A stretch of DNA of 64,000 bases from Clostridia bacterium. GTDB taxonomy: Bacteria > Bacillota > Clostridia > Oscillospirales > SIG627. The notes under the pieces are model-generated. The model did no database searches. It was not told where the DNA came from and worked only from the letters and a program-made list of their open reading frames with translations. Of this stretch, positions 1 through 9,632 are shown piece by piece; positions within the stretch are counted from its first letter, which is position 1, and each line of letters starts with the position of its first letter. A program made the translations under genes and the position numbers. The stretch covers positions 69,118-133,117 of the forward strand of contig JAFXEX010000014.1 of the NCBI GenBank assembly GCA_017520825.1, given 5' to 3'.

Positions 1-1844
1 AGCTTGAGGAAGAAAGGCTTCCTAAGGTGAAAGAGTATACAAAAAAGATAGCTGAAATAAAAGCTATTTTGCCTGATTATGACGAGCTAATTCAAAAGCA
101 AAAGACTTTTGACGATAATAAAGCATTCATTGATAGTAGCGGCGAAAACATTTCTGAAATTGAGAGAGGTATTCAAGCTTTAAGCGATGAAATAATTCTT
201 CTAACCGAAGAGAACAAAACTCTCGAAAAAAACGGCGAAGAAAAGCTGAAACTTGAAGCTGAAAAGCAAAAGCACGAAGAAGGAAGAAACAAACTTGAAG
301 ATTTAGACAAGAATATTGTGATTGCTTTCGACTATCATAAGGTATTCCTTGCTGCCAATGGTGATTATTTGGAGAAGGTCAAAGAGGCAGAAGAATTAGA
401 CTGTGAATACAAGACAATGACAAGGATTTATCTCGAAGCACAAGCAGGAATTTTGGCAGAAACTTTAGAAATAAATAAGCCTTGTCCTGTATGCGGTTCA
501 ACAACACATCCGCAAGTCGCAATTAAACCTGTTGATGTACCTACTAAGGATCAGCTTGATGACCTTCAGGATAAACTTAATATTGCCAATCAAACTGCAA
601 ATGAAGCAAGAACAGAGGCGGGCAAATTAAAGGGTGTGTCAGAAGAAAAAGAGATTACTGTAAAGAAGGATATAGTATTACTTTTGGGTGATGATGTATC
701 ATTTGACGAAGCACGGTCTGTAATTGCATCGAAAATATCTGACATTGATTCTTCGGTTAATGGTTTGAATTCACAGATAAAAGAAGTTCAGGACAAAATT
801 GAACGCAAAAAAGAACTTGATGAGCTTTTACCTGGAAAGAATTCTACTCTCGAAAAATCAAAAGAACAATTAACAGAAATTAAAGATAAGGTAAAAGTAA
901 GAACAGCAGAAAATATAGTTCTGGAAAAACGAATTTCCGAATTGTTGGAAAAGCTTATGTTTAAAACAAAAGCTGATGCGGAAAGCCAAATAACCGCCTT
1001 AGAAGATGAAGCAGAAGCTATTCAAAAAGCTTATGATGACTTGTTAAAAGAAGTGAATGATAACAAGGAAAAGCTTGCGTCACTAAAATCGGCAAAAGAT
1101 GAGATTTTAAAGCGCATTGGCAATGGCACGGATATTGACTTGGATAAAGAAAAAGAAAACAAACAATTTTTCGAAGAAAAGCAAGCTGTGCTTGACACAA
1201 ATTCAAAAATAGTACATAGTCGCAAAACATCTAACAAATCTTCTCTCGATAACATTTTGCAAAAGCTTGATGAAATTAAAATCGTTGAAGAAAAGTGGAC
1301 TTGGATGAAAACACTTTCCAATACTGCTAATGGAAACTTAAGTGGAAAAGAAAAGATAATGCTCGAAACTTATATTCAGATGACTTATTTTGACAGAATT
1401 ATAAATCGTGCCAACACAAGATTTATGGTTATGTCAGGCGGGCAGTATGAATTAAAGAGAAGAAAAGAAGCCGAAAATAACCGAAGTCAAAGTGGCCTTG
1501 AATTAGATGTTATAGACCATTACAACGGAACAGAAAGAAGCGTAAAAACCCTGTCTGGCGGTGAATCGTTTAAGGCATCTCTTTCTCTTGCTCTTGGCCT
1601 TTCCGATGAAATTCAATCATCTGCAGGCGGAATAAAGCTTGATACAATGTTTGTTGACGAAGGATTTGGATCTCTCGATGACGAATCCTTGGCACAAGCA
1701 ATAAAAGCCCTTTCATCGCTTGCTGAAGGAAACAGGCTTGTTGGTATCATTTCGCATGTAAACGAACTTAAAGACAAGATCGATAAACAGATAGTTGTAA
1801 AGAAAGAGAAAACAGGCGGAAGTAATGTTACTATTGTTGTATAA
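1..1844 (+). CDS. sbcC: SbcC/Rad50-family SMC-like ATPase, C-terminal ~610 codons (5' end outside the window)
   Basis: The frame is open from nt 3 through the listed GTG at 27, so the gene is cut by the window edge. It has a long K/E-rich coiled coil with a CPVCGS (CxxC, zinc-hook-like) motif, then the ABC signature LSGGESF, Walker B LDTMFVDEGFGSLD and H-loop GIISHV. Confidence 0.85.
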   Translation, partial: LEEERLPKVKEYTKKIAEIKAILPDYDELIQKQKTFDDNKAFIDSSGENISEIERGIQALSDEIILLTEENKTLEKNGEEKLKLEAEKQKHEEGRNKLEDLDKNIVIAFDYHKVFLAANGDYLEKVKEAEELDCEYKTMTRIYLEAQAGILAETLEINKPCPVCGSTTHPQVAIKPVDVPTKDQLDDLQDKLNIANQTANEARTEAGKLKGVSEEKEITVKKDIVLLLGDDVSFDEARSVIASKISDIDSSVNGLNSQIKEVQDKIERKKELDELLPGKNSTLEKSKEQLTEIKDKVKVRTAENIVLEKRISELLEKLMFKTKADAESQITALEDEAEAIQKAYDDLLKEVNDNKEKLASLKSAKDEILKRIGNGTDIDLDKEKENKQFFEEKQAVLDTNSKIVHSRKTSNKSSLDNILQKLDEIKIVEEKWTWMKTLSNTANGNLSGKEKIMLETYIQMTYFDRIINRANTRFMVMSGGQYELKRRKEAENNRSQSGLELDVIDHYNGTERSVKTLSGGESFKASLSLALGLSDEIQSSAGGIKLDTMFVDEGFGSLDDESLAQAIKALSSLAEGNRLVGIISHVNELKDKIDKQIVVKKEKTGGSNVTIVV

Positions 1845-1929
1845 ATTTTTTCTTGAATATTTAGTGTAATATTTGCAACGTTTTTTCTTTGATATAAGTC
1901 TCACAGTCCGTTTTATAGGACAGTTGATG

Positions 1930-1938
1930 TGATATAAT
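1930..1938 (+). promoter_or_regulatory. Extended -10 element TGaTATAAT upstream of the 1970 gene
   Basis: TGATATAAT was read directly, 32 nt upstream of the ATG at 1970. The -35 region is poor (GTTTTA). Confidence 0.4.
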
Positions 1939-1969
1939 TATATCAACAAAGGAAAGGTGGTAATAGAAT

Positions 1970-2554
1970 ATGGAAACAAAAGGTGAAATCAACATTTCTC
2001 CAAACTACAACAAAGATAGTTATCTTAACTTAAACCTCTCTTTGCAAAGTAGTGAGTCCGATTGGAATATGGCTGTTGCAATTTTGAAAGACAGAATTGA
2101 AGGCAGGTACTTTAATCAAATCGATTTACTTTCAAATGATGTTAATGCAAACGGATTCACTATAATGGCCTTGAATTGTTTGCTCATTGAAACATTGTTT
2201 CAGTTTAGAGATGGTGAAGAAGAAACCCCCCGTCCAAACAACAAGACCTACCCGGCGTTTCTATTACAGGAGTTTTCGTCCGTTTTTAGAGATCAAAAAA
2301 CAGCGAAAAGTTTTTATGCAAATATTCGTTGTGGTATTCTTCACTCTGCTCAAACAAAAAATGAATCGAGACTATCTGATAGAGAAGATGTTGTTGTGAC
2401 TTTTGAAGGAAACACTCTGGTCGTATCTGTAAAAGGCGTATCCTCATTGTTAAAGACGTATTTTGAACATTATTTGCAAAAACTTTCAAATCCAAAAGAA
2501 GTAACCTTGCGCAATAATTTCATAAATAAAATGAAATTTGTGTGCCGAAAGTGA
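1970..2554 (+). CDS. Hypothetical 194-aa protein with a HEPN-like R-x4-H motif (tentative)
   Basis: A GGAAAGGTGG RBS precedes the ATG. The protein contains NIRCGILHSAQ, which has the R-x4-H spacing of HEPN RNases, after a helix carrying an acidic residue (LLIETLFQF). The family call rests on motif spacing only. Confidence 0.6.
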   Translation: METKGEINISPNYNKDSYLNLNLSLQSSESDWNMAVAILKDRIEGRYFNQIDLLSNDVNANGFTIMALNCLLIETLFQFRDGEEETPRPNNKTYPAFLLQEFSSVFRDQKTAKSFYANIRCGILHSAQTKNESRLSDREDVVVTFEGNTLVVSVKGVSSLLKTYFEHYLQKLSNPKEVTLRNNFINKMKFVCRK

Positions 2555-2564
2555 GGAGATAAAC

Positions 2565-2774
2565 ATGTTTGAACCTTGGCAACTGGCAATGATTGATGAT
2601 GCCGGTTATAATGGTATTCGTGACGAGCACATTAACCGTGTATCAGAATCCTTGCTTTCAAGCGATTTAACTGGTATTGACCACAATACATTTGATTATC
2701 ACTGCCACAAATGTGGCATTGATCCAAATAATTTTACTAAACGCGATTTAGAAAAATTGTTCGAAAACATATAA
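2565..2774 (+). CDS. Small hypothetical protein (69 aa)
   Basis: The ORF track starts at 2538. However, GAGGAG lies 6 nt upstream of the ATG at 2565, which is 11 nt after the upstream stop, and the next gene follows 13 nt after this one's stop. The protein contains a CHKC pair. Confidence 0.5.
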   Translation: MFEPWQLAMIDDAGYNGIRDEHINRVSESLLSSDLTGIDHNTFDYHCHKCGIDPNNFTKRDLEKLFENI

Positions 2775-2786
2775 AAGGAGAGCGTT

Positions 2787-4097
2787 ATGAAATCAGTAGA
2801 TACAAAGGTTTACAAAATCACAGAAACTATAAGAGAAAAAGCCAACTTAGCAGATGAATTATACCAAAATAAAGCAAGCAAAGTTCACGAGGCGCTTTCT
2901 GACACTATATATCTTTCGCAAATCAATTCACTAAGACGGATTGTTGCAGATGCATTAAAGGCAGCCGAAGAATTATATTTAACATACGAAGCTCTGGTTC
3001 GTACCTTGGATTCTAAATGCAAAAGCATTATTGACGAGGGCGCTTCAGCAGACGCAGTAAAGGAAGTTTGTGACTTAATTGAATATCTAAACGCCGAATC
3101 ATCTTCTATTGATTGCAATTTTACTTTGTCAATCGAAATGATTGATATGGGTGACCTTGGTGGAATGAGCTTTATTGCCAGTGTTGAAGCTCAAGCAATA
3201 GAAGCTCTTTGGAAATCAAATTATTCTACTATGCCAGAAGTTATAGAGGCCGAAAAACAAAGTAAAATTATTGAAAATAAAGAAAAGGATGAATTAAAGA
3301 AAGCCTTAAAAGAGGTAGAAAAGAAAAAGAAAGAGAACGCAGAGCTTGCTAAAGAAATTGAATTAAAAAACCAAAAAGCAAAAGAGTATATGGATTCAAT
3401 AATACAAGAGTGCAAACAATGCATATCGGATTATAAAAATAGGCTAGAAGAAGAATTAGAGGCACAGATAAGTCAACTTGAAAAAAGCAAAGAAACTGAA
3501 ACTTTGGAAATCAAGAAAAAAATAAGTAAAAAACAAGATGAATTGTCAAACATGGGACTTTTTAACTTTTCACAAAAAAAGATCTTGAAAGACGAAATAA
3601 GAAATTTATCAATTGCTTTAGAAAAACTTAATACTTCAAACATAGTTTCACAAAAAAACAATTACTTCCGTGAATTGATTGACGGGACATTAAAAGATTA
3701 CAAAAAAACTATTGATGAATATTTGTCAAAAAGATTCCCAAAAACTGACGATGAGAAATCTTCAACTGTTGAACTTGAACCTGCTGATATCATTTTACAA
3801 GTCATGGATTCTGCGGATTCACTTATGACTATTAGTGATATCAAACTTGCTGATTATAGAATTCCGGACTCTAATCAAAAAGTTTCAGCCTTTGTTCGCC
3901 AATTGGTTGTAGAAGGTCTGTTAATGCGAAAGGAAATAAAGGAATGTGCATACTTTAAAATAACGCCAAAAGGTAGGTTGAAAATAGCTGAGAAAACTGA
4001 TCCTTTACCTGTAGAAAAATATCGTGAAAACCCAGAGTATGCTAACACTCCTATACCTGAATCACCAAGCGTGATGACAATTTTTAAACAAACATAA
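2787..4097 (+). CDS. 436-aa coiled-coil protein, paralog A (possible C-terminal winged-helix)
   Basis: An AAGGAGA RBS is present. The central region is a highly charged K/E coiled coil. The motif LSNMGLFNFSQKKILKDEIRNL and the C-terminal tail ...NTPIPESPSV are both shared with the 5238 gene. The C-terminal VSAFVRQLVVEGLLMRKE...ITPKGR segment looks wHTH-like. Confidence 0.8.
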   Translation: MKSVDTKVYKITETIREKANLADELYQNKASKVHEALSDTIYLSQINSLRRIVADALKAAEELYLTYEALVRTLDSKCKSIIDEGASADAVKEVCDLIEYLNAESSSIDCNFTLSIEMIDMGDLGGMSFIASVEAQAIEALWKSNYSTMPEVIEAEKQSKIIENKEKDELKKALKEVEKKKKENAELAKEIELKNQKAKEYMDSIIQECKQCISDYKNRLEEELEAQISQLEKSKETETLEIKKKISKKQDELSNMGLFNFSQKKILKDEIRNLSIALEKLNTSNIVSQKNNYFRELIDGTLKDYKKTIDEYLSKRFPKTDDEKSSTVELEPADIILQVMDSADSLMTISDIKLADYRIPDSNQKVSAFVRQLVVEGLLMRKEIKECAYFKITPKGRLKIAEKTDPLPVEKYRENPEYANTPIPESPSVMTIFKQT

Positions 4098-4141
4098 AGT
4101 TATTTGATATTTCTTAGTAGGATTTATAAGGTCATGAGCAA

Positions 4142-4192
4142 ATGGGACTTTTTGGTTACAAGAAACTTATTGATGTGATTTCCAGATTATAA
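4142..4192 (+). other. 16-codon mini-ORF or gene fragment (MGLFGYKKLIDVISRL) resembling the paralog motif
   Basis: It shares atgggacttttt with the 2787 gene at the nucleotide level. Its translation mimics the MGLFNFSQKKILKDEI motif and is bounded by TAA on both sides. It is likely a remnant of a third paralog. Confidence 0.3.
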
Positions 4193-4595
4193 TCAACGCG
4201 TTCCTTTCGGTAAGCCTTTATTTCCTGACTTCCGGCTATCTCGACATTTTTTTACCTATATGATCTGTGTAGTATGCGCAGATACCTATAACAAAAAAAT
4301 GTATTTCTTTGATCAAGAAGGTAAGGAACGAATACTTTGAGTTTGCTCCTTTGCGCAAAGCCGGAACGCAGAAAACACTTAACGGGACAAACCAATAATT
4401 AGGGGGGTGAAGAAATATACTAGGAATATCGTTACTTTGTCAGAGACAGTTCCCTATCATTTCTGAATAATACTTTACAGAAAATTGAACTGGAAGCATC
4501 TGATGACAAGTAGACAGTAAAAATAAAAACCACAATCGGAAGACAAAGAATATAATGCAGTCTAATTAAAAATATGAATTTAAAGGAGAACTATT

Positions 4596-5192
4596 ATGAA
4601 CGAATCAAAATACTTACAACAAACACACTTTTATGTTCCTGACGAATATGTTAGTGCCAAGGCACAGGAGGAAACAGATATAAACTTATCTTCTTTTGCG
4701 GGAGCGAATTTCACCTTTGATATTATTGAGTAACCATTTCATTGTGTAATTGCTTCTATTGAAGGTGCTATTGAGTTTAAGTTATATGTTCGCAGTGAAA
4801 TGGGAGCCTTTCTTGAAAACCCTGATCTCGGAGTGAAATTGTTCCGAGAACCTCGATAAGATGGAAAAGAGTTTGAGGTTACTGCAAATATAGGAAGAAT
4901 TGGAGATGTAGGACAAATTTTTGGTATTTTCCTCAATGTAGTTGGGGGGATAAGTATATTTGCGGAGGAAAAAGAGCTTGTAACTGAACTTTCAAATATT
5001 GACACTGAGTCTGAAGGTTTCCTTATCAAACTCGACGGTGATGAACTTCTGTTTAACAAGGTTGCTGGAAAGGCCCGCCCTGATATGGCTTGCACTACCT
5101 TGTTCGGAGGTGTCCAGATGATGCGCCCTTACCAGGACGAAATTATGGATAGCTGGATGGGCGAGATGATGTCGATTGAAGAAAAAAATTGA
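4596..5192 (+). pseudogene. About 199-codon reading frame interrupted by two in-frame TAA codons (4731, 4857)
   Basis: I translated it by hand. An AAAGGAGA RBS precedes an ATG at 4596, and a single frame runs to TGA at 5190 with TAA at 4731-4733 and 4857-4859. The amino-acid composition looks protein-like on this strand. The opposite-strand ORFs in the track look like antisense artefacts. Confidence 0.5.
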
Positions 5193-5237
5193 ACAGATAG
5201 TACAAAATTTCAAAGCATAAAATCCAGGAGGATAAAA

Positions 5238-6575
5238 ATGAATGCTCAAGAATATTATTCTTATGCGAAAGAAAAAATTTATAATTTTAAGAAAAGGTGG
5301 GAAGCTTTTACCATTGAAGCTCCCAACAAACTTTCTAACTTAATAGCAGAGGGGATTTCGTTTTCAAAAACGCTTGGTATTTCTGAAGATATACATACCG
5401 GAGAAATAAAACTCAAGACTGAGTATGAAATAAATTCAAATACAGATTTTGCTGAAGGGTATATTGGAGTTATAAAGTATCGGGTAGAAAAATATGCAGA
5501 AGAATTAATGGGAATAGTTGAAGATATCGATGTTAATTTATATACATTTGTTTTCGAAGGGCTTGATAACGATTTATTTAATGATTTTGTTGATATTATT
5601 GACGAATGCATCAAATATTTTTCCGATATATGCATAAATATTTCTAGCGGACGAATTGGTACAACTGTTCCTGATTCGGCGATATCAATACAAAAGAAAT
5701 GGGAAAATACTTTTCCTGATGAGGTCAGAAAAAACGAATCTGAAAGATTAGGCATTCCCATTGAAAATCTGGGTAAACATATAAAATACCTTGAAGCAAA
5801 AAAACTATTGAAAAATGCAACAACATCGACTGAGATAAATGATGCCAAGGAGATTTTTATCTTACTTAATGGATATTTAGACTCCTCAGGGCTTGTATCA
5901 TTATGTGATGAAAAAAATTTAGAGTTAGAGAAAAACAAAGTAGAAAAAATCATTAATATGAAGCAAAGAGCAGCGGAAGGAAGACGAAAAAGAGAGGAAG
6001 AATTACGGCAAAAGAGGGAGAAGGAAGAAAAGCAAGAGGCTGACTATTATGCAGTTCAAAACGAATGTGAACGCAATCTTGCTGAATTTAAAAATCAGTT
6101 AGAAGTACAGATTGAAATTGAAATTAACATTGCAAAAAAAGAAAACGAAGCGCTGTTGTTAGAAGCAAAAGAAGAATTTACAACAATGGAAAAAGAACTG
6201 TCATCACTTGGATTCTTTAAGTTTTCTGACAAGAATAGGCTAAAGAATGAAATCAACAATTTGCAAAACAAAATAGACTTTCTTTCTTCAGAGCAACAAG
6301 TTGCAGAACTCGAAAAACATTTAAAATCAAAAGCTATCAAGGTACAAAAGAAATATAAAAAACAACTTGAAGATTTTTTTGATGAGCTTTTTCCGTTTGA
6401 AAAGCAGTTTGACACTGCCAAAAAAGCTTATATTGATTCTAAAGGATATTATGACGAGAAGCGTGCTGAAGAATATGCATACCGAAAGGTTATAACCAAA
6501 GAATTTGAAAGAGCACCGGGAATGGAAAATGCAACAGTGCCTTCCATACCTAACGTCAAGGACGCATTAAAATAA
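5238..6575 (+). CDS. 445-aa coiled-coil protein, paralog B
   Basis: A CAGGAGGA RBS is present. It has a charged coiled coil (RRKREEELRQKREKEEKQE). The motif LSSLGFFKFSDKNRLKNEINNL and the tail NATVPSIPNV match the 2787 gene. Confidence 0.8.
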   Translation: MNAQEYYSYAKEKIYNFKKRWEAFTIEAPNKLSNLIAEGISFSKTLGISEDIHTGEIKLKTEYEINSNTDFAEGYIGVIKYRVEKYAEELMGIVEDIDVNLYTFVFEGLDNDLFNDFVDIIDECIKYFSDICINISSGRIGTTVPDSAISIQKKWENTFPDEVRKNESERLGIPIENLGKHIKYLEAKKLLKNATTSTEINDAKEIFILLNGYLDSSGLVSLCDEKNLELEKNKVEKIINMKQRAAEGRRKREEELRQKREKEEKQEADYYAVQNECERNLAEFKNQLEVQIEIEINIAKKENEALLLEAKEEFTTMEKELSSLGFFKFSDKNRLKNEINNLQNKIDFLSSEQQVAELEKHLKSKAIKVQKKYKKQLEDFFDELFPFEKQFDTAKKAYIDSKGYYDEKRAEEYAYRKVITKEFERAPGMENATVPSIPNVKDALK

Positions 6576-6632
6576 TCTTTTAAGAATTAGAAGGATATTA
6601 GAACATAAATAAAATGAAATAAACAGAAGGAG

Positions 6633-7718
6633 GTGGAAAAGTTGAAATACATAATTAACGATAAAAAATATCGTTTCAAATCGGCATTTGATACTGAAAC
6701 GGGTGCATATGTCCGTACCGGCGTGCTTGATGAAAACGACAAAGATACAGGTGTTGATCCCTTTATGGCATCCTATCCTCATCTAATTGACGTTGGCATT
6801 ATGGGTCACTGTATTCACGGTAAGACAGGACTTTGCGCCAAAGCAGGTATCGGATGCTATCAAAGCGGTATGCTTGTGGAACAACCTAATATGTCGGTTG
6901 AGGATTTCAGGTGGATTGCAGAACAATCTAAAGGAAAATGCAACCAATTTGCTCTCGGTGGCAGAGGTGATCCTGATCAGCACGAGCATTTTGAGGAAAT
7001 ACTAAAAATATGCCGAGAAAATGTGCTTGTACCCAATTTCACAACATCCGGTTATGGTATGACACCTGAAATTGCTAAACTGTGCAAGCAATATTGCGGT
7101 GCTGTGGCGGTAAGCTGGTATAGAAACGACTATACTTTGAAAGCTATTCAGATACTTCTTGATGCCGGTGTTAAAACCAACATTCATTATGTGCTCGGTA
7201 AAAATAGCATTGACGAAGCGATCGAACGTTTACAAAAGAATGACTTCCCACAAGGAATAAATGCAGTGATTTTTTTATTACATAAACCCGCAGGACAAGG
7301 CACGAAGGCAAATATGTTAGAGGCAATTGACCCAAGAGTTGCGGAATTTTTTGCACAGGTAGACAAGCAGCACCCCTTTAAGGTTGGTATGGATAGTTGT
7401 AATGTTCCCGGCGCCATCAATTTCTGCAAATCCATTTTGCCTGAATCCCTTGATACTTGCGAAGGTGGAAGATACAGCTGCTATATAGGTGCTGATATGA
7501 TTATGGTTCCTTGCAGTTTCGACCAAGAGAAGCGTTATGAGGTTTCACTGCGTAAAATGTCAATTACAGAAGGGTGGAATAGTGAACCCTTTGAGCGATT
7601 TCGCAACAAAATGCGTGGTGCTTGTCCTGATTGTGAAAAGAAAGAACTTTGTATGGGTGGATGCCCACTAATGCCCGAAATTGTTTTTTGTACAAGCAAA
7701 AGCAGAATAATATTATAA
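6633..7718 (+). CDS. Radical-SAM-fold / SPASM-domain protein lacking the canonical CX3CX2C motif
   Basis: The C-terminus CPDCEKKELCMGGC matches the SPASM signature C-x2-C-x5-C-x3-C, preceded by further Cys residues. GGRGDP and NFTTSGYG resemble the rSAM GGE and TNG motifs. The N-terminal Cys triad is GHCIHGKTGLCAKAGIGC (C-x7-C-x6-C). The start may instead be the TTG at 6642, because the GTG at 6633 lies inside the GGAGGTG SD. Confidence 0.8.
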   Translation: MEKLKYIINDKKYRFKSAFDTETGAYVRTGVLDENDKDTGVDPFMASYPHLIDVGIMGHCIHGKTGLCAKAGIGCYQSGMLVEQPNMSVEDFRWIAEQSKGKCNQFALGGRGDPDQHEHFEEILKICRENVLVPNFTTSGYGMTPEIAKLCKQYCGAVAVSWYRNDYTLKAIQILLDAGVKTNIHYVLGKNSIDEAIERLQKNDFPQGINAVIFLLHKPAGQGTKANMLEAIDPRVAEFFAQVDKQHPFKVGMDSCNVPGAINFCKSILPESLDTCEGGRYSCYIGADMIMVPCSFDQEKRYEVSLRKMSITEGWNSEPFERFRNKMRGACPDCEKKELCMGGCPLMPEIVFCTSKSRIIL

Positions 7719-7738
7719 GATGAAAGGAAGATTTAATT

Positions 7739-8464
7739 ATGAAAATTAGAACAGATTTTGTAACCAATTCAAGCTCCAGCAGCTTTTGTGTTGAGGTTCA
7801 AGTCAAAACAACAAGCGGTGCAAAATTCAAGACAAAGCTTTATGTTGGGGATGAAGATGGTATACTTGAAAGCGCAAATGTTATTGATTGTACTCCTACT
7901 GAAGTCCTCGAATGCGATAACATAAAGTCTTTGGCAGAACTTTTATATGAAGCGGTCGTACCGGAAGAAATAGACGAAGCACCAGAAGATTATTTTAAAA
8001 AAAGAGTTAAAAATTTCGTTAATAAAATTGGTAAAAATATATCAGATTTTAGCGACATAGAAACAATTACGTTTAGTGGGGAATGGGAAGCTTGGGGGCA
8101 GGCATCAAGTTGTTTTGGCGCAAATTTGGAATTTTATGCGAAAGAATTACCGGAGCTGGCAAGGAGAGTATGTGAATCTGATGGCGAAGAAAAAGAAAAA
8201 GCTAAAATTGATTTACAAAACTATTTGTCCAATTATGCTGGAAAAATCAAAGGAGATTGGGGCGGTAAATTCCCATCCGGTATGCTTGGAATGAACAAAG
8301 GAGCTATTGTGTGGGACAAAATTGCTAACAACATCGAGGAATTCGCCCAGATGGTTCTTGATGGTAACCTGCCTAATGATGACTATGCAGAGGAAACTGT
8401 TGTTATAAATATGAATACAAAGGAAATTACACAAAAAGCTGAGTATATTTTAAGAAACAATTAA
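7739..8464 (+). CDS. Acidic 241-aa hypothetical protein with N-terminal FVTNSSSSSFCVE motif
   Basis: An AAAGGAAG RBS is present, and the gene starts 20 nt after the rSAM stop. The protein is D/E-rich and contains no recognisable catalytic motif. Confidence 0.7.
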   Translation: MKIRTDFVTNSSSSSFCVEVQVKTTSGAKFKTKLYVGDEDGILESANVIDCTPTEVLECDNIKSLAELLYEAVVPEEIDEAPEDYFKKRVKNFVNKIGKNISDFSDIETITFSGEWEAWGQASSCFGANLEFYAKELPELARRVCESDGEEKEKAKIDLQNYLSNYAGKIKGDWGGKFPSGMLGMNKGAIVWDKIANNIEEFAQMVLDGNLPNDDYAEETVVINMNTKEITQKAEYILRNN

Positions 8465-8499
8465 ATTCTAAAATAAATATTAATAAAGGAGAAGTTGAT

Positions 8500-9459
8500 A
8501 TGTTATTAGCTGACAGCTTAGTAGAGGCATTGAGTTATACTGACTTGTATAATAAATTATCTGGAGTTAAGGTTTTTTGCGAAGAATCCGTTCGTGATGA
8601 GGCAAAGGGGTGTTTTTTAACCGAATTTGAAAAAGAGTGGCAAAATGCGTTAGAAAAAGCCGAAGAGGAATACGGAGAACTTGAAGAGGATGAGGAAAAT
8701 ATTCCATGTGAAATAATTGATAAAAATTATGGTTTTTTCATATCAACCGATGGTTTAGATATTCGACATTCTTATGGTGATTATTTCGCCCCTGATTATG
8801 GCATTGTCGCTTTTAATCAGGCACTAAAAAACTTAAAAAGTACTTATTCTCAAATTGAGTATGAAGGATATTTAGGATTTTTGTATTCTGATGTGTCTGC
8901 GGGAGAAGTGTATCAATGGGAGTTGTCTTCTAAAGAGAAAGATGACAAAAAAATATATGATTTTGTTGGTGAGATTTTAGGTGAAGTTTTTGCATCAGAC
9001 TTATATATCCCCGAAGAGCCACTGGATGCTGATGGATTGAATTTTGTAATAACAGGAAAATTGAATCATTTTGAAAACAGAGAAGAAATATCTGAATATA
9101 TTGAAGATTTAGGAGGAAGTGTTACAAGCGGTATCTCTAAAAACACTAATTATTTAATCAATAATGATATAAATTCCACTTCGTCAAAAAATATTAAAGC
9201 AACTGAGTTGGGTGTTCCTATTATTAGCGAAAGTGAATTTATAGCAATGTTTGGTGATCCAAGTGAATTTGATATAGAAGAATCAGACTTTTGGAGAAGT
9301 TTAGAAGAGAGTATTACGGGATATAATGATGATTCTGCAGAAGTAACGGAGAATCTATATGCATATTCAAATTGGATAAAAAAAGCTGATTTTGATAGGG
9401 CTATAAGATCAATTGCTCACATTGTAGGTGAAGAGGAAGATAACGATTGGGATGAATAG
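8500..9459 (+). CDS. Acidic protein with a BRCT domain (LigA-C-terminus-like)
   Basis: An AAGGAGAAG RBS is present. The segment GLNFVITGKLNHFENREEISEYIEDLGGSVTSGISKNTNYLI...ATELGVPIISESEFIAMF follows the bacterial BRCT pattern of NAD-ligase C-termini. The flanks are very acidic. Confidence 0.75.
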   Translation: MLLADSLVEALSYTDLYNKLSGVKVFCEESVRDEAKGCFLTEFEKEWQNALEKAEEEYGELEEDEENIPCEIIDKNYGFFISTDGLDIRHSYGDYFAPDYGIVAFNQALKNLKSTYSQIEYEGYLGFLYSDVSAGEVYQWELSSKEKDDKKIYDFVGEILGEVFASDLYIPEEPLDADGLNFVITGKLNHFENREEISEYIEDLGGSVTSGISKNTNYLINNDINSTSSKNIKATELGVPIISESEFIAMFGDPSEFDIEESDFWRSLEESITGYNDDSAEVTENLYAYSNWIKKADFDRAIRSIAHIVGEEEDNDWDE

Positions 9460-9540
9460 AAATATGTTCTAACATAATAATCTTATGAGTCCGTTGATTA
9501 TATCGATGAAATAAAGCACCACAAAATGAACATAGAAAAA

Positions 9541-9579
9541 CCTACCGCCTAAGCCGTTATGACTTAGGTGGTAGGTTTT
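9541..9579. terminator. Bidirectional rho-independent terminator at the island/tRNA junction
   Basis: The stem CCTACCGCCTAAG / CTTAGGTGGTAGG (one G.U pair) is flanked by AAAAA on the 5' side and TTTT on the 3' side. Confidence 0.7.
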
Positions 9580-9632
9580 CTGTAAATGCAAAGACATTCT
9601 TCACAATGTGCAAGGTTCGTCTTTGCGTGTTT

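What the first reader, a model, noticed from the sequence alone, without database searches (positions are those of the whole stretch)
6633..7718. Radical-SAM/SPASM protein with C-x7-C-x6-C instead of CX3CX2C
Where the SAM-cluster motif should lie, after the first beta strand, the sequence is IMGHCIHGKTGLCAKAGIGCYQ. The GGE-like (GGRGDP) and SPASM auxiliary-cluster motifs are intact. Two other rSAM proteins in the same window, HemW (CRKKCNYC) and DUF512 (CRNKCIFC), carry the canonical motif, so this is not a property of the organism. The protein is either a non-canonical cluster binder or a pseudo-rSAM that keeps only its auxiliary clusters.
Basis: seen in the sequence. Interest (0 to 1): 0.55.

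Follow-up and report, generated by a model that had tools for sequence, protein, structure and literature searches.

The report
Stretched-loop radical SAM enzyme with tagged partners
This gene encodes a mobile-element and phage radical SAM/SPASM enzyme whose three iron-sulfur cysteines sit on an unusually stretched loop, and it is nearly always followed by genes for very different proteins that share one 16-residue N-terminus, which suggests an undescribed protein-modification system.

Summary
ORF 6633..7718 (+) encodes a radical SAM/SPASM protein with C60-x7-C68-x6-C75 (nt 6810-6857) just after strand beta1. The GGE-like motif and a full SPASM cysteine set are present.

It is not an error or a dead enzyme. 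All three Cys are invariant in a 43-sequence family alignment. Spacings form a graded series: CX3CX2C, CX4/5CX2C, CX5CX3C, CX5CX6C, CX7CX6C, CX7CX8C. A family profile places the triad on the SAM-cluster motif of SuiB, SkfB and anSME. Inteins have inserted at the third Cys and at the GGE motif. The AF2 model (pLDDT 94) matches peptide- and protein-modifying SPASM maturases.

The larger result lies just outside the given coordinates. The next gene (7739..8464) begins MKIRTDFVTNSSSSSF. That N-terminus starts the gene directly after the rSAM in 56 of 72 genome loci from several phyla. Conversely, 65 of 75 tag-centred viral loci carry this rSAM family upstream, usually before arrays of 2-8 tagged genes. 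One phage fuses tag domain and rSAM. Cultured Klebsiella phage KP15 encodes both.

Best reading: an active maturase acting on the shared tag. The chemistry is unknown. No paper, Pfam, NCBIfam or PADLOC entry describes the pair.

The parts
6633..7718 (+). Radical SAM/SPASM gene. The ORF from GTG 6633 gives 361 aa. The probable real start is TTG 6642, giving 358 aa.
   Evidence: AF2 model pLDDT 94.2, pTM 0.92. Foldseek matches SuiB, anSME and PqqE. Profile hits to SuiB at 5e-15, SkfB and anSME. A 358-aa gene is called on another assembly of the same locus.
6629..6633 (+). Shine-Dalgarno GGAGG, 8 nt upstream of TTG 6642.
   Evidence: Read from the sequence.
6810..6857 (+). Expanded SAM-cluster loop C60-x7-C68-x6-C75, followed by the invariant Y76.
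6951..6974 (+). GGE-like SAM-binding motif ALGGRGDP (residues 107-114). A107, G109, G110 and G112 are invariant.
7398..7691 (+). SPASM region with eight Cys (C256, C276, C294, C331, C334, C340, C344, C353), enough for two auxiliary [4Fe-4S] clusters.
   Evidence: PF13186 at 2.4e-6. Conservation. Alignment to SuiB and anSME.
7739..8464 (+). Partner gene, 241 aa, beginning MKIRTDFVTNSSSSSF. It starts 21 nt after the rSAM stop codon.
   Evidence: AF2 pLDDT is 90 overall but 52 for residues 1-10. No fold match in PDB or BFVD.
7739..7786 (+). The 16 codons that encode the invariant N-terminal tag.
   Evidence: Invariant columns. Synonymous codons vary freely. DNA similarity to other loci ends at about 7786-7793.
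8500..9459 (+). BRCT-domain protein, 319 aa, without the tag. In relatives a BRCT domain is fused to the tagged protein. Its membership of the unit is tentative.
   Evidence: PF00533. P0299 and P0341 carry BRCT. BRCT occurs in 3 of 52 tagged proteins.

Best explanation
The gene encodes a working radical SAM/SPASM enzyve of a phage and mobile-element family.

The cluster loop. The loop that carries the three ligands of the SAM-binding [4Fe-4S] cluster has been lengthened by insertions in both spacers. C60, C68 and C75 correspond to Cys1, Cys2 and Cys3 of CX3CX2C. The enzyme would bind SAM at the free iron, with help from the retained GGE-like motif, and generate a 5'-deoxyadenosyl radical. The two SPASM clusters would handle electron transfer, as in anSME and the RiPP maturases.

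The substrate. Its most likely substrate is the invariant, flexible N-terminal segment M-K-[IVF]-[RK]-x-D-F-V-T-N-S-S-S-S-S-F of the protein or proteins encoded directly downstream. Apart from this segment those proteins are unrelated to each other: small phage proteins, or LRR, BRCT, HIRAN and TIR fusions. The pair therefore works like a leader-and-maturase system in which the substrate is a whole protein.

Shown: the motif and its conservation, the fold, the family continuum, the gene linkage in both directions, one natural fusion, and selection acting on the peptide rather than the DNA.

Inferred: cluster binding, SAM cleavage, and the tag being the substrate.

Unknown: which residue is modified, how it is modified, and what the tagged proteins do.
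For: Cys triad.
- C60, C68, C75 and Y76 are invariant in 43 diverse family members.
- Spacings form a graded series from CX3CX2C to CX7CX8C.
- In an NJ tree built with the loop masked, the expanded forms fall in one derived clade.
- The family profile aligns the triad, the GGE motif and the SPASM motif to SuiB (5e-15), SkfB and anSME.

Fold. AF2 gives pLDDT 94.2. The best PDB matches are SuiB, anSME, PqqE, TigE, ChlB, SkfB and CteB.

Inteins. One is inserted at the third Cys (P0216) and others at the ALGG motif (P0138, P0141, P0191, L132).

Precedent. Longer first spacers are tolerated in known radical SAM enzymes: CX4-11CX2C clusters (PMC9477430) and QueE CX14CX2C (PMC4389238).

Link to the tag.
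- A tagged gene starts within about -80..+150 nt of the rSAM stop in 48 of 72 genome loci. Eight more loci have slightly divergent tags.
- 65 of 75 viral loci found through the tag alone carry the rSAM within 8 kb upstream on the same strand.
- No other neighbouring gene family is conserved.
- DNA similarity between loci stops after tag codon 16-18.
- Synonymous codons vary while the peptide stays invariant.
- Tag residues 1-10 have pLDDT 52 in an otherwise confident model.
- Tags with K at position 4 accompany canonical rSAMs (25 of 27). Tags with R at position 4 accompany expanded ones (139 of 139).
- Salmonella phage Arash gp146c fuses a tag-like N-terminal domain to an rSAM of this kind.
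- Phage KP15 encodes both partners.
Against: - There is no biochemical evidence for a cluster, for SAM cleavage or for any modification.
- The aromatic residue that normally precedes Cys3 (CxxxCx-aromatic-C) and contacts SAM is missing in the expanded forms (IG-C, VD-C, VG-C).
- H59 and H62 lie in the loop and could alter ligation.
- Pfam Radical_SAM does not hit the query.
- About a fifth of genome loci have no tagged gene beside the rSAM, for example L005 and L006, where it follows an AraC-family gene.
- In KP15 the two genes lie about 20 kb apart.
- The K/R co-variation could reflect shared ancestry rather than direct contact.
- One tagged subfamily (phrog_7397) has conserved acidic and His motifs. 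It could be an enzyme in which the Ser-rich segment is part of an active site rather than a substrate.
Confidence: 0.6

Rival explanations
1. Pseudo-radical-SAM. The N-terminal cluster site is dead. The protein keeps only its SPASM clusters and acts as a redox or scaffold partner of the tagged proteins.
For: Pfam Radical_SAM gives no hit. The aromatic residue before Cys3 is lost. A few family representatives lack the Cys triad (P0136, P0140, P0148, P0149, P0154). NCBIfam contains named pseudo-rSAM/SPASM families (own knowledge).
Against: The three Cys, Y76 and the GGE motif are invariant across the family. Canonical and expanded members keep the same partner and the same gene order. Inteins sit at the cluster and GGE motifs. 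The triad aligns onto the cluster motif of solved enzymes.
Confidence: 0.1
2. Active radical SAM enzyme, but the tag is not its substrate. It acts on a small molecule, nucleic acid or host protein. The tagged proteins are regulators, targeting subunits or merely co-transferred cargo.
For: Some loci have the rSAM alone. The two genes are about 20 kb apart in KP15. The tagged proteins carry ligand- or DNA-binding domains (LRR, BRCT, HIRAN, TIR), which would suit an adaptor role. The family has no RRE domain.
Against: The linkage holds in both directions and across phyla and phages. The genes often overlap at stop and start. One natural fusion exists. Only the 16 N-terminal residues are shared, they always begin at Met1, and they are predicted to be flexible. 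The closest solved folds are all peptide or protein maturases.
Confidence: 0.2
3. The Cys triad binds a different metal centre that does not cleave SAM. Candidates are a fully ligated cluster using H59 or H62, a [2Fe-2S] cluster, or Zn.
For: The GHCxHG context places two His beside Cys1. The CX7CX6C spacing is otherwise known from CCCH zinc fingers.
Against: There is no His at +4 after C75 (the sequence is CYQSG), so the CCCH pattern is not met. H62 is absent from other expanded forms such as CKNAHLCDVGC and CVCAHKCNVDC. The GGE and ribose-region motifs are retained.
Confidence: 0.08
4. Sequencing, assembly or frame artefact that hides a canonical CX3CX2C.
For: None found.
Against: The same motif occurs in about 75 independently assembled genome loci and in every close homologue read. 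The ORF is uninterrupted. The protein folds with pLDDT 94.
Confidence: 0.01

Closest known systems
Anaerobic sulfatase-maturating enzyme (anSME; PDB 4K36-4K39)
   Same: Radical SAM core plus a SPASM domain with two auxiliary clusters. It has no RRE domain. Its substrate is a short conserved motif in whole proteins, Ser or Cys near the N-terminal part of sulfatases (own knowledge). It is a Foldseek hit at E 4e-10 and a profile hit at 1.5e-8.
   Different: anSME has canonical CX3CX2C. Against TIGR03942 the query scores 12.8 bits where the cut-off is 349. The substrate motif (C/S-x-P-x-R) is absent from the tag. anSME is a housekeeping gene, not a phage or mobile-element gene.
SuiB (streptide) and other RiPP rSAM/SPASM maturases (SkfB, CteB, PqqE, TigE, ChlB)
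   Same: These are the best structural and profile matches: SuiB at Foldseek 2.7e-11 with TM 0.64, and profile 5e-15. The gene logic is also the same: a maturase followed by one or several substrate genes that share a conserved N-terminal part and have variable remainders.
   Different: Those enzymes use an RRE domain and act on short peptides. Here there is only a beta-rich N-terminal extension of about 45 residues. The partners are proteins of 90 to more than 1000 aa, and the conserved segment is only 16 residues long and starts at Met1.
Radical SAM enzymes with known non-canonical cluster motifs (QueE CX14CX2C, HmdB/HcgA CX5CX2C, RadicalSAM.org clusters CX4-11CX2C, ThiC CX2CX4C)
   Same: The three-Cys site tolerates loop insertions. 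The position after beta1 is kept, as in QueE (PMC4389238; PMC9477430).
   Different: All of the listed N-terminal variants keep the CX2C half. Here the second spacer is also expanded, to X3, X6 or X8, within a single family. ThiC differs in the second spacer too, but its site is in a C-terminal domain with a different architecture.
PHROG families phrog_7293 and phrog_7397
   Same: phrog_7293 is the KP15_135-type rSAM. The query hits it at 6.8e-15 and KP15_135 at 3e-270. phrog_7397 is the KP15_102-type tagged protein.
   Different: Both are listed as 'unknown function'. Nothing in the library links them to each other.

Membership tests
Radical SAM superfamily | Three-Cys motif CX3CX2C after strand beta1 | tested here: not met
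   The spacing is X7/X6. The three Cys are nevertheless present, invariant, and aligned with the canonical triad of relatives and of SuiB, SkfB and anSME.
Radical SAM superfamily | Match to Pfam PF04055 above its threshold | tested here: not met
   No hit at E<=1 for the query. Some 85%-identical homologues carry precomputed PF04055 hits. Canonical relatives and phage Arash gp146c do hit the model.
Radical SAM superfamily | GGE-type SAM-binding motif and a partial (beta/alpha)6 barrel | tested here: met
   ALGGRGDP, with A107, G109, G110 and G112 invariant. It aligns to the G-GEP of SuiB and anSME. The AF2 fold matches radical SAM structures.
Radical SAM superfamily | Reductive cleavage of SAM at a site-differentiated [4Fe-4S] cluster | not testable with these tools
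   This needs anaerobic biochemistry.
SPASM subfamily | C-terminal 7-8 Cys motif including CX2CX5CX3C | tested here: met
   PF13186 scores 28.1 bits against a cut-off of 21.5. The motif is C331-x2-C334-x5-C340-x3-C344, plus C256, C276, C294 and C353. TIGR04085 scores 26.3, just under its cut-off of 27.
Named NCBIfam rSAM/SPASM equivalogs (W-cofactor maturase, ScmF, MftC, NirJ2, AhbD, PqqE, anSME) | Score above the curated cut-off | tested here: not met
   The best is TIGR04317 at 33.3 bits against 380. All others are far below their cut-offs.
RiPP maturases with a recognition element | N-terminal RRE (PqqD-like) domain | tested here: not met
   No Pfam hit N-terminal to the core. Only about 45 residues with three short strands precede beta1.
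CCCH zinc finger (CX7CX6CX3H) | His three residues after the third Cys | tested here: not met
   The sequence is C75-YQS-G79. The spacing match is coincidental.
Known anti-phage defence systems (PADLOC) | Match to a PADLOC model | tested here: not met
   No hit for the rSAM. The tagged protein gives only a weak hit, judged spurious.

The most novel reading that the evidence does not exclude
Phages and mobile elements of many bacterial phyla carry a two-part system that has not been described. One radical SAM/SPASM enzyme installs a post-translational modification on a universal 16-residue N-terminal tag. The tag is shared by dozens of otherwise unrelated proteins: small phage proteins and LRR, BRCT, HIRAN or TIR fusions. 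The modification would be a common activation, targeting or protection mark for a polymorphic set of conflict proteins. The enzyme family would also show that both spacers of the radical SAM cluster motif can be lengthened without loss of function.
Probability: 0.4. Interest if true: 0.85.

Novelty: new variant of a known kind. Interest (0 to 1): 0.7.

Why it matters
For radical SAM enzymology. This single family samples many spacings of the cluster motif, including lengthened second spacers. The published lists I read report only CXnCX2C variants. The family is therefore a natural test set for how much geometry the SAM-binding cluster loop tolerates. It also shows that motif- or Pfam-based censuses miss such members.

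For phage and mobile-element biology. The enzyme is very abundant: 4677 clusters at 90% identity hit in metagenomes. It is tied to a large family of proteins that share only an invariant N-terminus. This looks like a leader-and-maturase system acting on whole proteins, and no database or paper that I could search describes it.

It is directly testable. Cultured Klebsiella phages (KP15, Miro and relatives) encode both partners.

Tried and rejected
- PDB sequence search with the single protein found nothing useful. The family profile was needed.
- A profile of the first 40 tag residues against the 5.8-billion-protein set returned only 16 short fragments, so one capped search was wasted.
- Fold searches with the tagged-protein model found no significant match in PDB or BFVD.
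- Pfam, NCBIfam and PHROG scans of 52 tagged proteins found no model for the tag, only C-terminal LRR, BRCT, HIRAN and TIR domains.
- PADLOC gave no hit for the rSAM.
- Literature searches found nothing relevant. I searched for the tag string, for phage radical SAM/SPASM, for KP15/Slopekvirus together with radical SAM, and for CX7CX6C.
- I looked for a strict link between the one-residue insertion in the GGE loop (ALGGxG) and the expanded Cys loops. It fails: canonical CX3CX2C members also carry ALGGxG.
- I considered the tag being conserved at the DNA level, as a recombination or regulatory site. Synonymous codons vary freely, including TCN and AGY serine codons, so this is rejected.
- I considered a CCCH zinc finger. 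There is no His at the required position, so this is rejected.
- Thiol-to-thiol distances could not be measured, because model coordinates are not exposed.
- The invariance of T9, N10 and S11-13 in the regex-collected tag sets is partly circular. The independent support comes from homology-based alignment A4 and from the looser first regex.

Full report
**1. The observation**

The ORF 6633..7718 (+) is real and uninterrupted. It encodes IMGHCIHGKTGLCAKAGIGCYQ, with Cys codons at 6810-6812, 6834-6836 and 6855-6857. That gives C60-x7-C68-x6-C75. In the AF2 model the motif follows strand E51-57.

Pfam finds only the SPASM domain (28.1 bits, cut-off 21.5) and no Radical_SAM hit at E<=1. NCBIfam gives only weak, sub-threshold similarity to several rSAM/SPASM maturases.

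The start codon is probably TTG 6642 rather than GTG 6633. The TTG lies 8 nt after the GGAGG at 6629-6633. Homologues begin M(K/R)YII. The same locus on another assembly is called as a 358-aa gene.

**2. Is the motif conserved, and what does it correspond to?**

The protein has 4677 hits at E<=1e-3 in the 90%-clustered protein set. The best 120 are 84-93% identical, and all 11 that I read carry the same motif. A search of 50%-identity representatives found 1528 relatives.

Aligning diverse full-length members gives a clear result. C60, C68, C75 and Y76 are invariant, but the spacers vary:
- Distant members are canonical, for example CTKGCPYCYQ.
- Others are CX4CX2C, CX5CX2C, CX7CX2C or CX9CX2C.
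- Others are CX5CX3C or CxCX3CX3C.
- The most expanded are CX5CX6C, CX7CX6C and CX7CX8C.

C60, C68 and C75 are therefore Cys1, Cys2 and Cys3 of the classical motif, with insertions in both spacers.

In a neighbour-joining tree built with the loop columns masked, canonical forms occupy the basal clades. The expanded forms fall in one derived clade (DIGIMG...ALGGxG[DN]P), inside which the loop has been remodelled repeatedly.

A profile of the family places the triad on the cluster motif of SuiB (YCDLK-CGFCF), SkfB and anSME. It also places ALGG-G-P on their GGE motif and the C-terminal Cys on their SPASM motif.

Also invariant or nearly so are A107, G109, G110, G112, T137, S161, K218, and C256, C276, C294, C331, C334 and C344.

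**3. Fold**

With a 43-sequence alignment, AF2 gives pLDDT 94.2 and pTM 0.92. The loop region scores 83-85. The best PDB matches are all peptide- or protein-modifying rSAM/SPASM enzymes: SuiB (E 2.7e-11, TM 0.64), anSME, PqqE, TigE, ChlB, SkfB and CteB. Coordinates are not exposed, so I could not measure whether the three thiols converge.

**4. Inteins**

Several family members are interrupted by inteins:
- In P0216 a mini-intein sits exactly before the third Cys: ...KCSHACKY | C...VHN | CYQ... . Splicing would restore CX3CX2C.
- In P0138, P0141, P0191 and the L132 ORF, a LAGLIDADG intein sits just before ALGGRGDP.

By general knowledge, inteins settle in the most constrained catalytic motifs. 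This argues that both motifs matter, including in the clade that has the expanded loop.

**5. Precedent**

RadicalSAM.org reports clusters with CX4CX2C through CX11CX2C (PMC9477430). QueE has CX14CX2C with a canonical site and one extended loop. HmdB has CX5CX2C. ThiC has CX2CX4C in a different architecture (PMC4389238).

All of the N-terminal variants listed there keep the CX2C half. I found no radical SAM paper with a lengthened second spacer at the canonical position. CX7CX6C appears in the searchable literature only as part of CCCH zinc fingers, and the His that pattern requires is absent here.

One caveat applies. The aromatic residue that normally precedes Cys3 is lost in the expanded forms, although the invariant Y76 follows Cys3.

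**6. Genomic setting**

Window positions 1 to about 9600 have 30-39% GC, against 44-52% for the rest. The rSAM lies in this low-GC block. The block holds SbcD and SbcC (phage-like), three unknown proteins, the rSAM, a 241-aa unknown protein and a BRCT protein. It abuts the housekeeping genes hemW and lepA.

Relatives at 64-94% identity occur in Clostridia, Bacteroidales, Eggerthellaceae, Anaerolineae and Erysipelotrichaceae MAGs. Some sit next to integrases and recombinases. This points to horizontal spread.

DNA similarity between the window and these loci covers only the rSAM gene plus the first 50-55 nt of the next gene.

**7. The partner family**

The next gene (7739..8464) begins MKIRTDFVTNSSSSSF. 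The same N-terminus begins genes flanking the rSAM in unrelated contigs.

*Genome loci.* Among 72 loci with at least 200 nt downstream, 48 have such a gene starting within -80..+150 nt of the rSAM stop. Eight more have slightly divergent tags, such as ...NSSDSSF or ...SSSSNF. Often 2-4 tagged genes follow in tandem.

*What is shared.* In an alignment of 52 tagged proteins, only the first 16 residues are conserved. The rest ranges from about 130 to more than 1000 aa and includes LRR_5 (9 proteins), BRCT (3), HIRAN, TIR and beta-propeller domains. No Pfam, NCBIfam or PADLOC model covers the tag. No other neighbouring gene family is conserved; the next-largest clusters are antisense shadow ORFs.

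*Selection on the peptide.* Synonymous sites in the 16 codons vary freely, including both serine codon families, so selection acts on the peptide.

*The reverse test.* Scanning IMG/VR for DFVTNSSS gave 359 stretches and 75 loci. Of these, 65 carry a member of this rSAM family within 8 kb upstream on the same strand. The loci hold arrays of up to 8 tagged genes. In total there are 199 distinct proteins of 89-262 aa, falling into at least 36 unrelated C-terminal groups. The motif nearly always lies at a fixed distance from the nearest upstream Met, so the tag starts at Met1.

*Same partner for both enzyme types.* The rSAMs in these viral loci include canonical and expanded types, so both kinds keep the same partner. 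Tags with K at position 4 go with canonical enzymes (25 of 27). Tags with R at position 4 go with expanded ones (139 of 139).

*A fusion and a cultured example.* Salmonella phage Arash gp146c is annotated as a methyltransferase. It is a fusion of a tag-like N-terminus (MYLTQIRYGFATNSSSSHS), a domain of about 150-190 aa, and an rSAM of this kind. Cultured Klebsiella phage KP15 has both KP15_135 (an rSAM with CX7CX2C, phrog_7293) and KP15_102 (MKIRSGFVSNSSSSSF..., phrog_7397), about 20 kb apart. Both PHROG families are listed as unknown function.

*Structure of the window's tagged protein.* The AF2 model is confident overall (pLDDT 90) except for residues 1-10 (pLDDT 52). The fold has no match in PDB or BFVD.

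**8. Interpretation**

The simplest reading is a maturase and its substrates. The enzyve is a radical SAM/SPASM enzyme with a lengthened cluster loop. It recognises and modifies the flexible, invariant N-terminal tag of whatever protein follows it.

This resembles anSME, which modifies a short motif in whole proteins and has no RRE domain. It also resembles RiPP systems, which have a conserved leader, variable cores and several precursors next to the maturase.

I cannot say which residue is modified or how. Candidates by analogy are Ser oxidation, cross-linking that involves F7 or F16, and epimerisation. Nothing here discriminates between them.

Rival readings cannot be excluded without experiments:
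- The tagged proteins are adaptors rather than substrates.
- The N-terminal site is inactive.
- The site holds a different metal centre.

A sequencing artefact is excluded.

**9. Verdict**

- The motif is a new variant within a known superfamily.
- The conserved pairing with an N-terminally tagged, polymorphic protein family in phages and mobile elements appears undescribed and is readily testable.

Noticed in passing
window 7739..8464, and the genes after the rSAM in L007-L086 and L089-L163: A large protein family is defined only by the invariant N-terminus MK[IVF][RK]xDFVTNSSSSS[FY]. It is encoded directly after this rSAM family, singly or in arrays of up to 8. No Pfam, NCBIfam or PADLOC model covers the tag.
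   Followed up: yes
P0216 (residues about 74-206); P0138, P0141, P0191; L132:3261-5606: Inteins interrupt family members at two sites. A mini-intein sits immediately before the third cluster Cys. LAGLIDADG inteins sit immediately before the ALGG (GGE) motif.
   Followed up: partly
window 6629..6644: The annotated GTG 6633 overlaps the Shine-Dalgarno GGAGG. TTG 6642 is the more likely start (358 aa), which matches homologues and the gene call on another assembly.
   Followed up: yes
window 1..9600: A low-GC block (about 0.30-0.39, against 0.44-0.52 for the rest) ends next to hemW and lepA. It holds the 3' part of a phage-like sbcC (sbcD lies upstream in L167), three unknown ORFs including a 445-aa coiled-coil protein, the rSAM, the tagged gene and a BRCT gene. 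It is probably a horizontally acquired island. Its left boundary lies outside the window.
   Followed up: partly
window 8500..9459: A BRCT-domain protein without the tag follows the tagged gene. In relatives (P0299, P0341) a BRCT domain is fused to the C-terminus of the tagged protein, so the two window genes may be a split version of one protein.
   Followed up: partly
L165:4551-5981 (Salmonella phage Arash gp146c, OQ632216.1): A gene annotated as 'methyltransferase' is a fusion of a tag-like N-terminal domain (IRYGFATNSSSSHS) with a canonical-motif rSAM domain. Its SPASM region looks truncated.
   Followed up: partly
L164:4848-6050 and L166:3001-3516 (Klebsiella phage KP15, NC_014036.1): Cultured T4-like phages (KP15, Miro, RB16 and more than 90 others) carry a distant rSAM homologue with CX7CX2C (KP15_135). 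They also carry a tagged protein, KP15_102, about 20 kb away. Both are annotated as hypothetical.
   Followed up: partly
L142:8001-8522, L147:8001-8501, L103:2749-3270, L166:3001-3516: One tagged subfamily (phrog_7397) has a conserved C-terminal pattern, Y-[GA]-D-E-[DC]-G-E ... E-H-G ... [SK]-H-H. This looks like a metal or active site, so this subfamily may be an enzyme.
   Followed up: no
P0136, P0140, P0148, P0149, P0154: A few 50%-identity representatives of the rSAM family lack one or more of the three Cys. These could be degenerate members or alignment and fragment effects.
   Followed up: no
L005:10001-11083, L006: In some genomes the rSAM (85% identical, same CX7CX6C motif) stands alone after an AraC-family regulator among sugar-metabolism genes, with no tagged gene within 10 kb.
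   Followed up: no
L046:5421-5980 compared with window 1286..1844: In L046 the 3' end of a homologous sbcC-like gene lies directly upstream of the rSAM. In the window it lies 4.8 kb away. This is the only flanking synteny seen.
   Followed up: no
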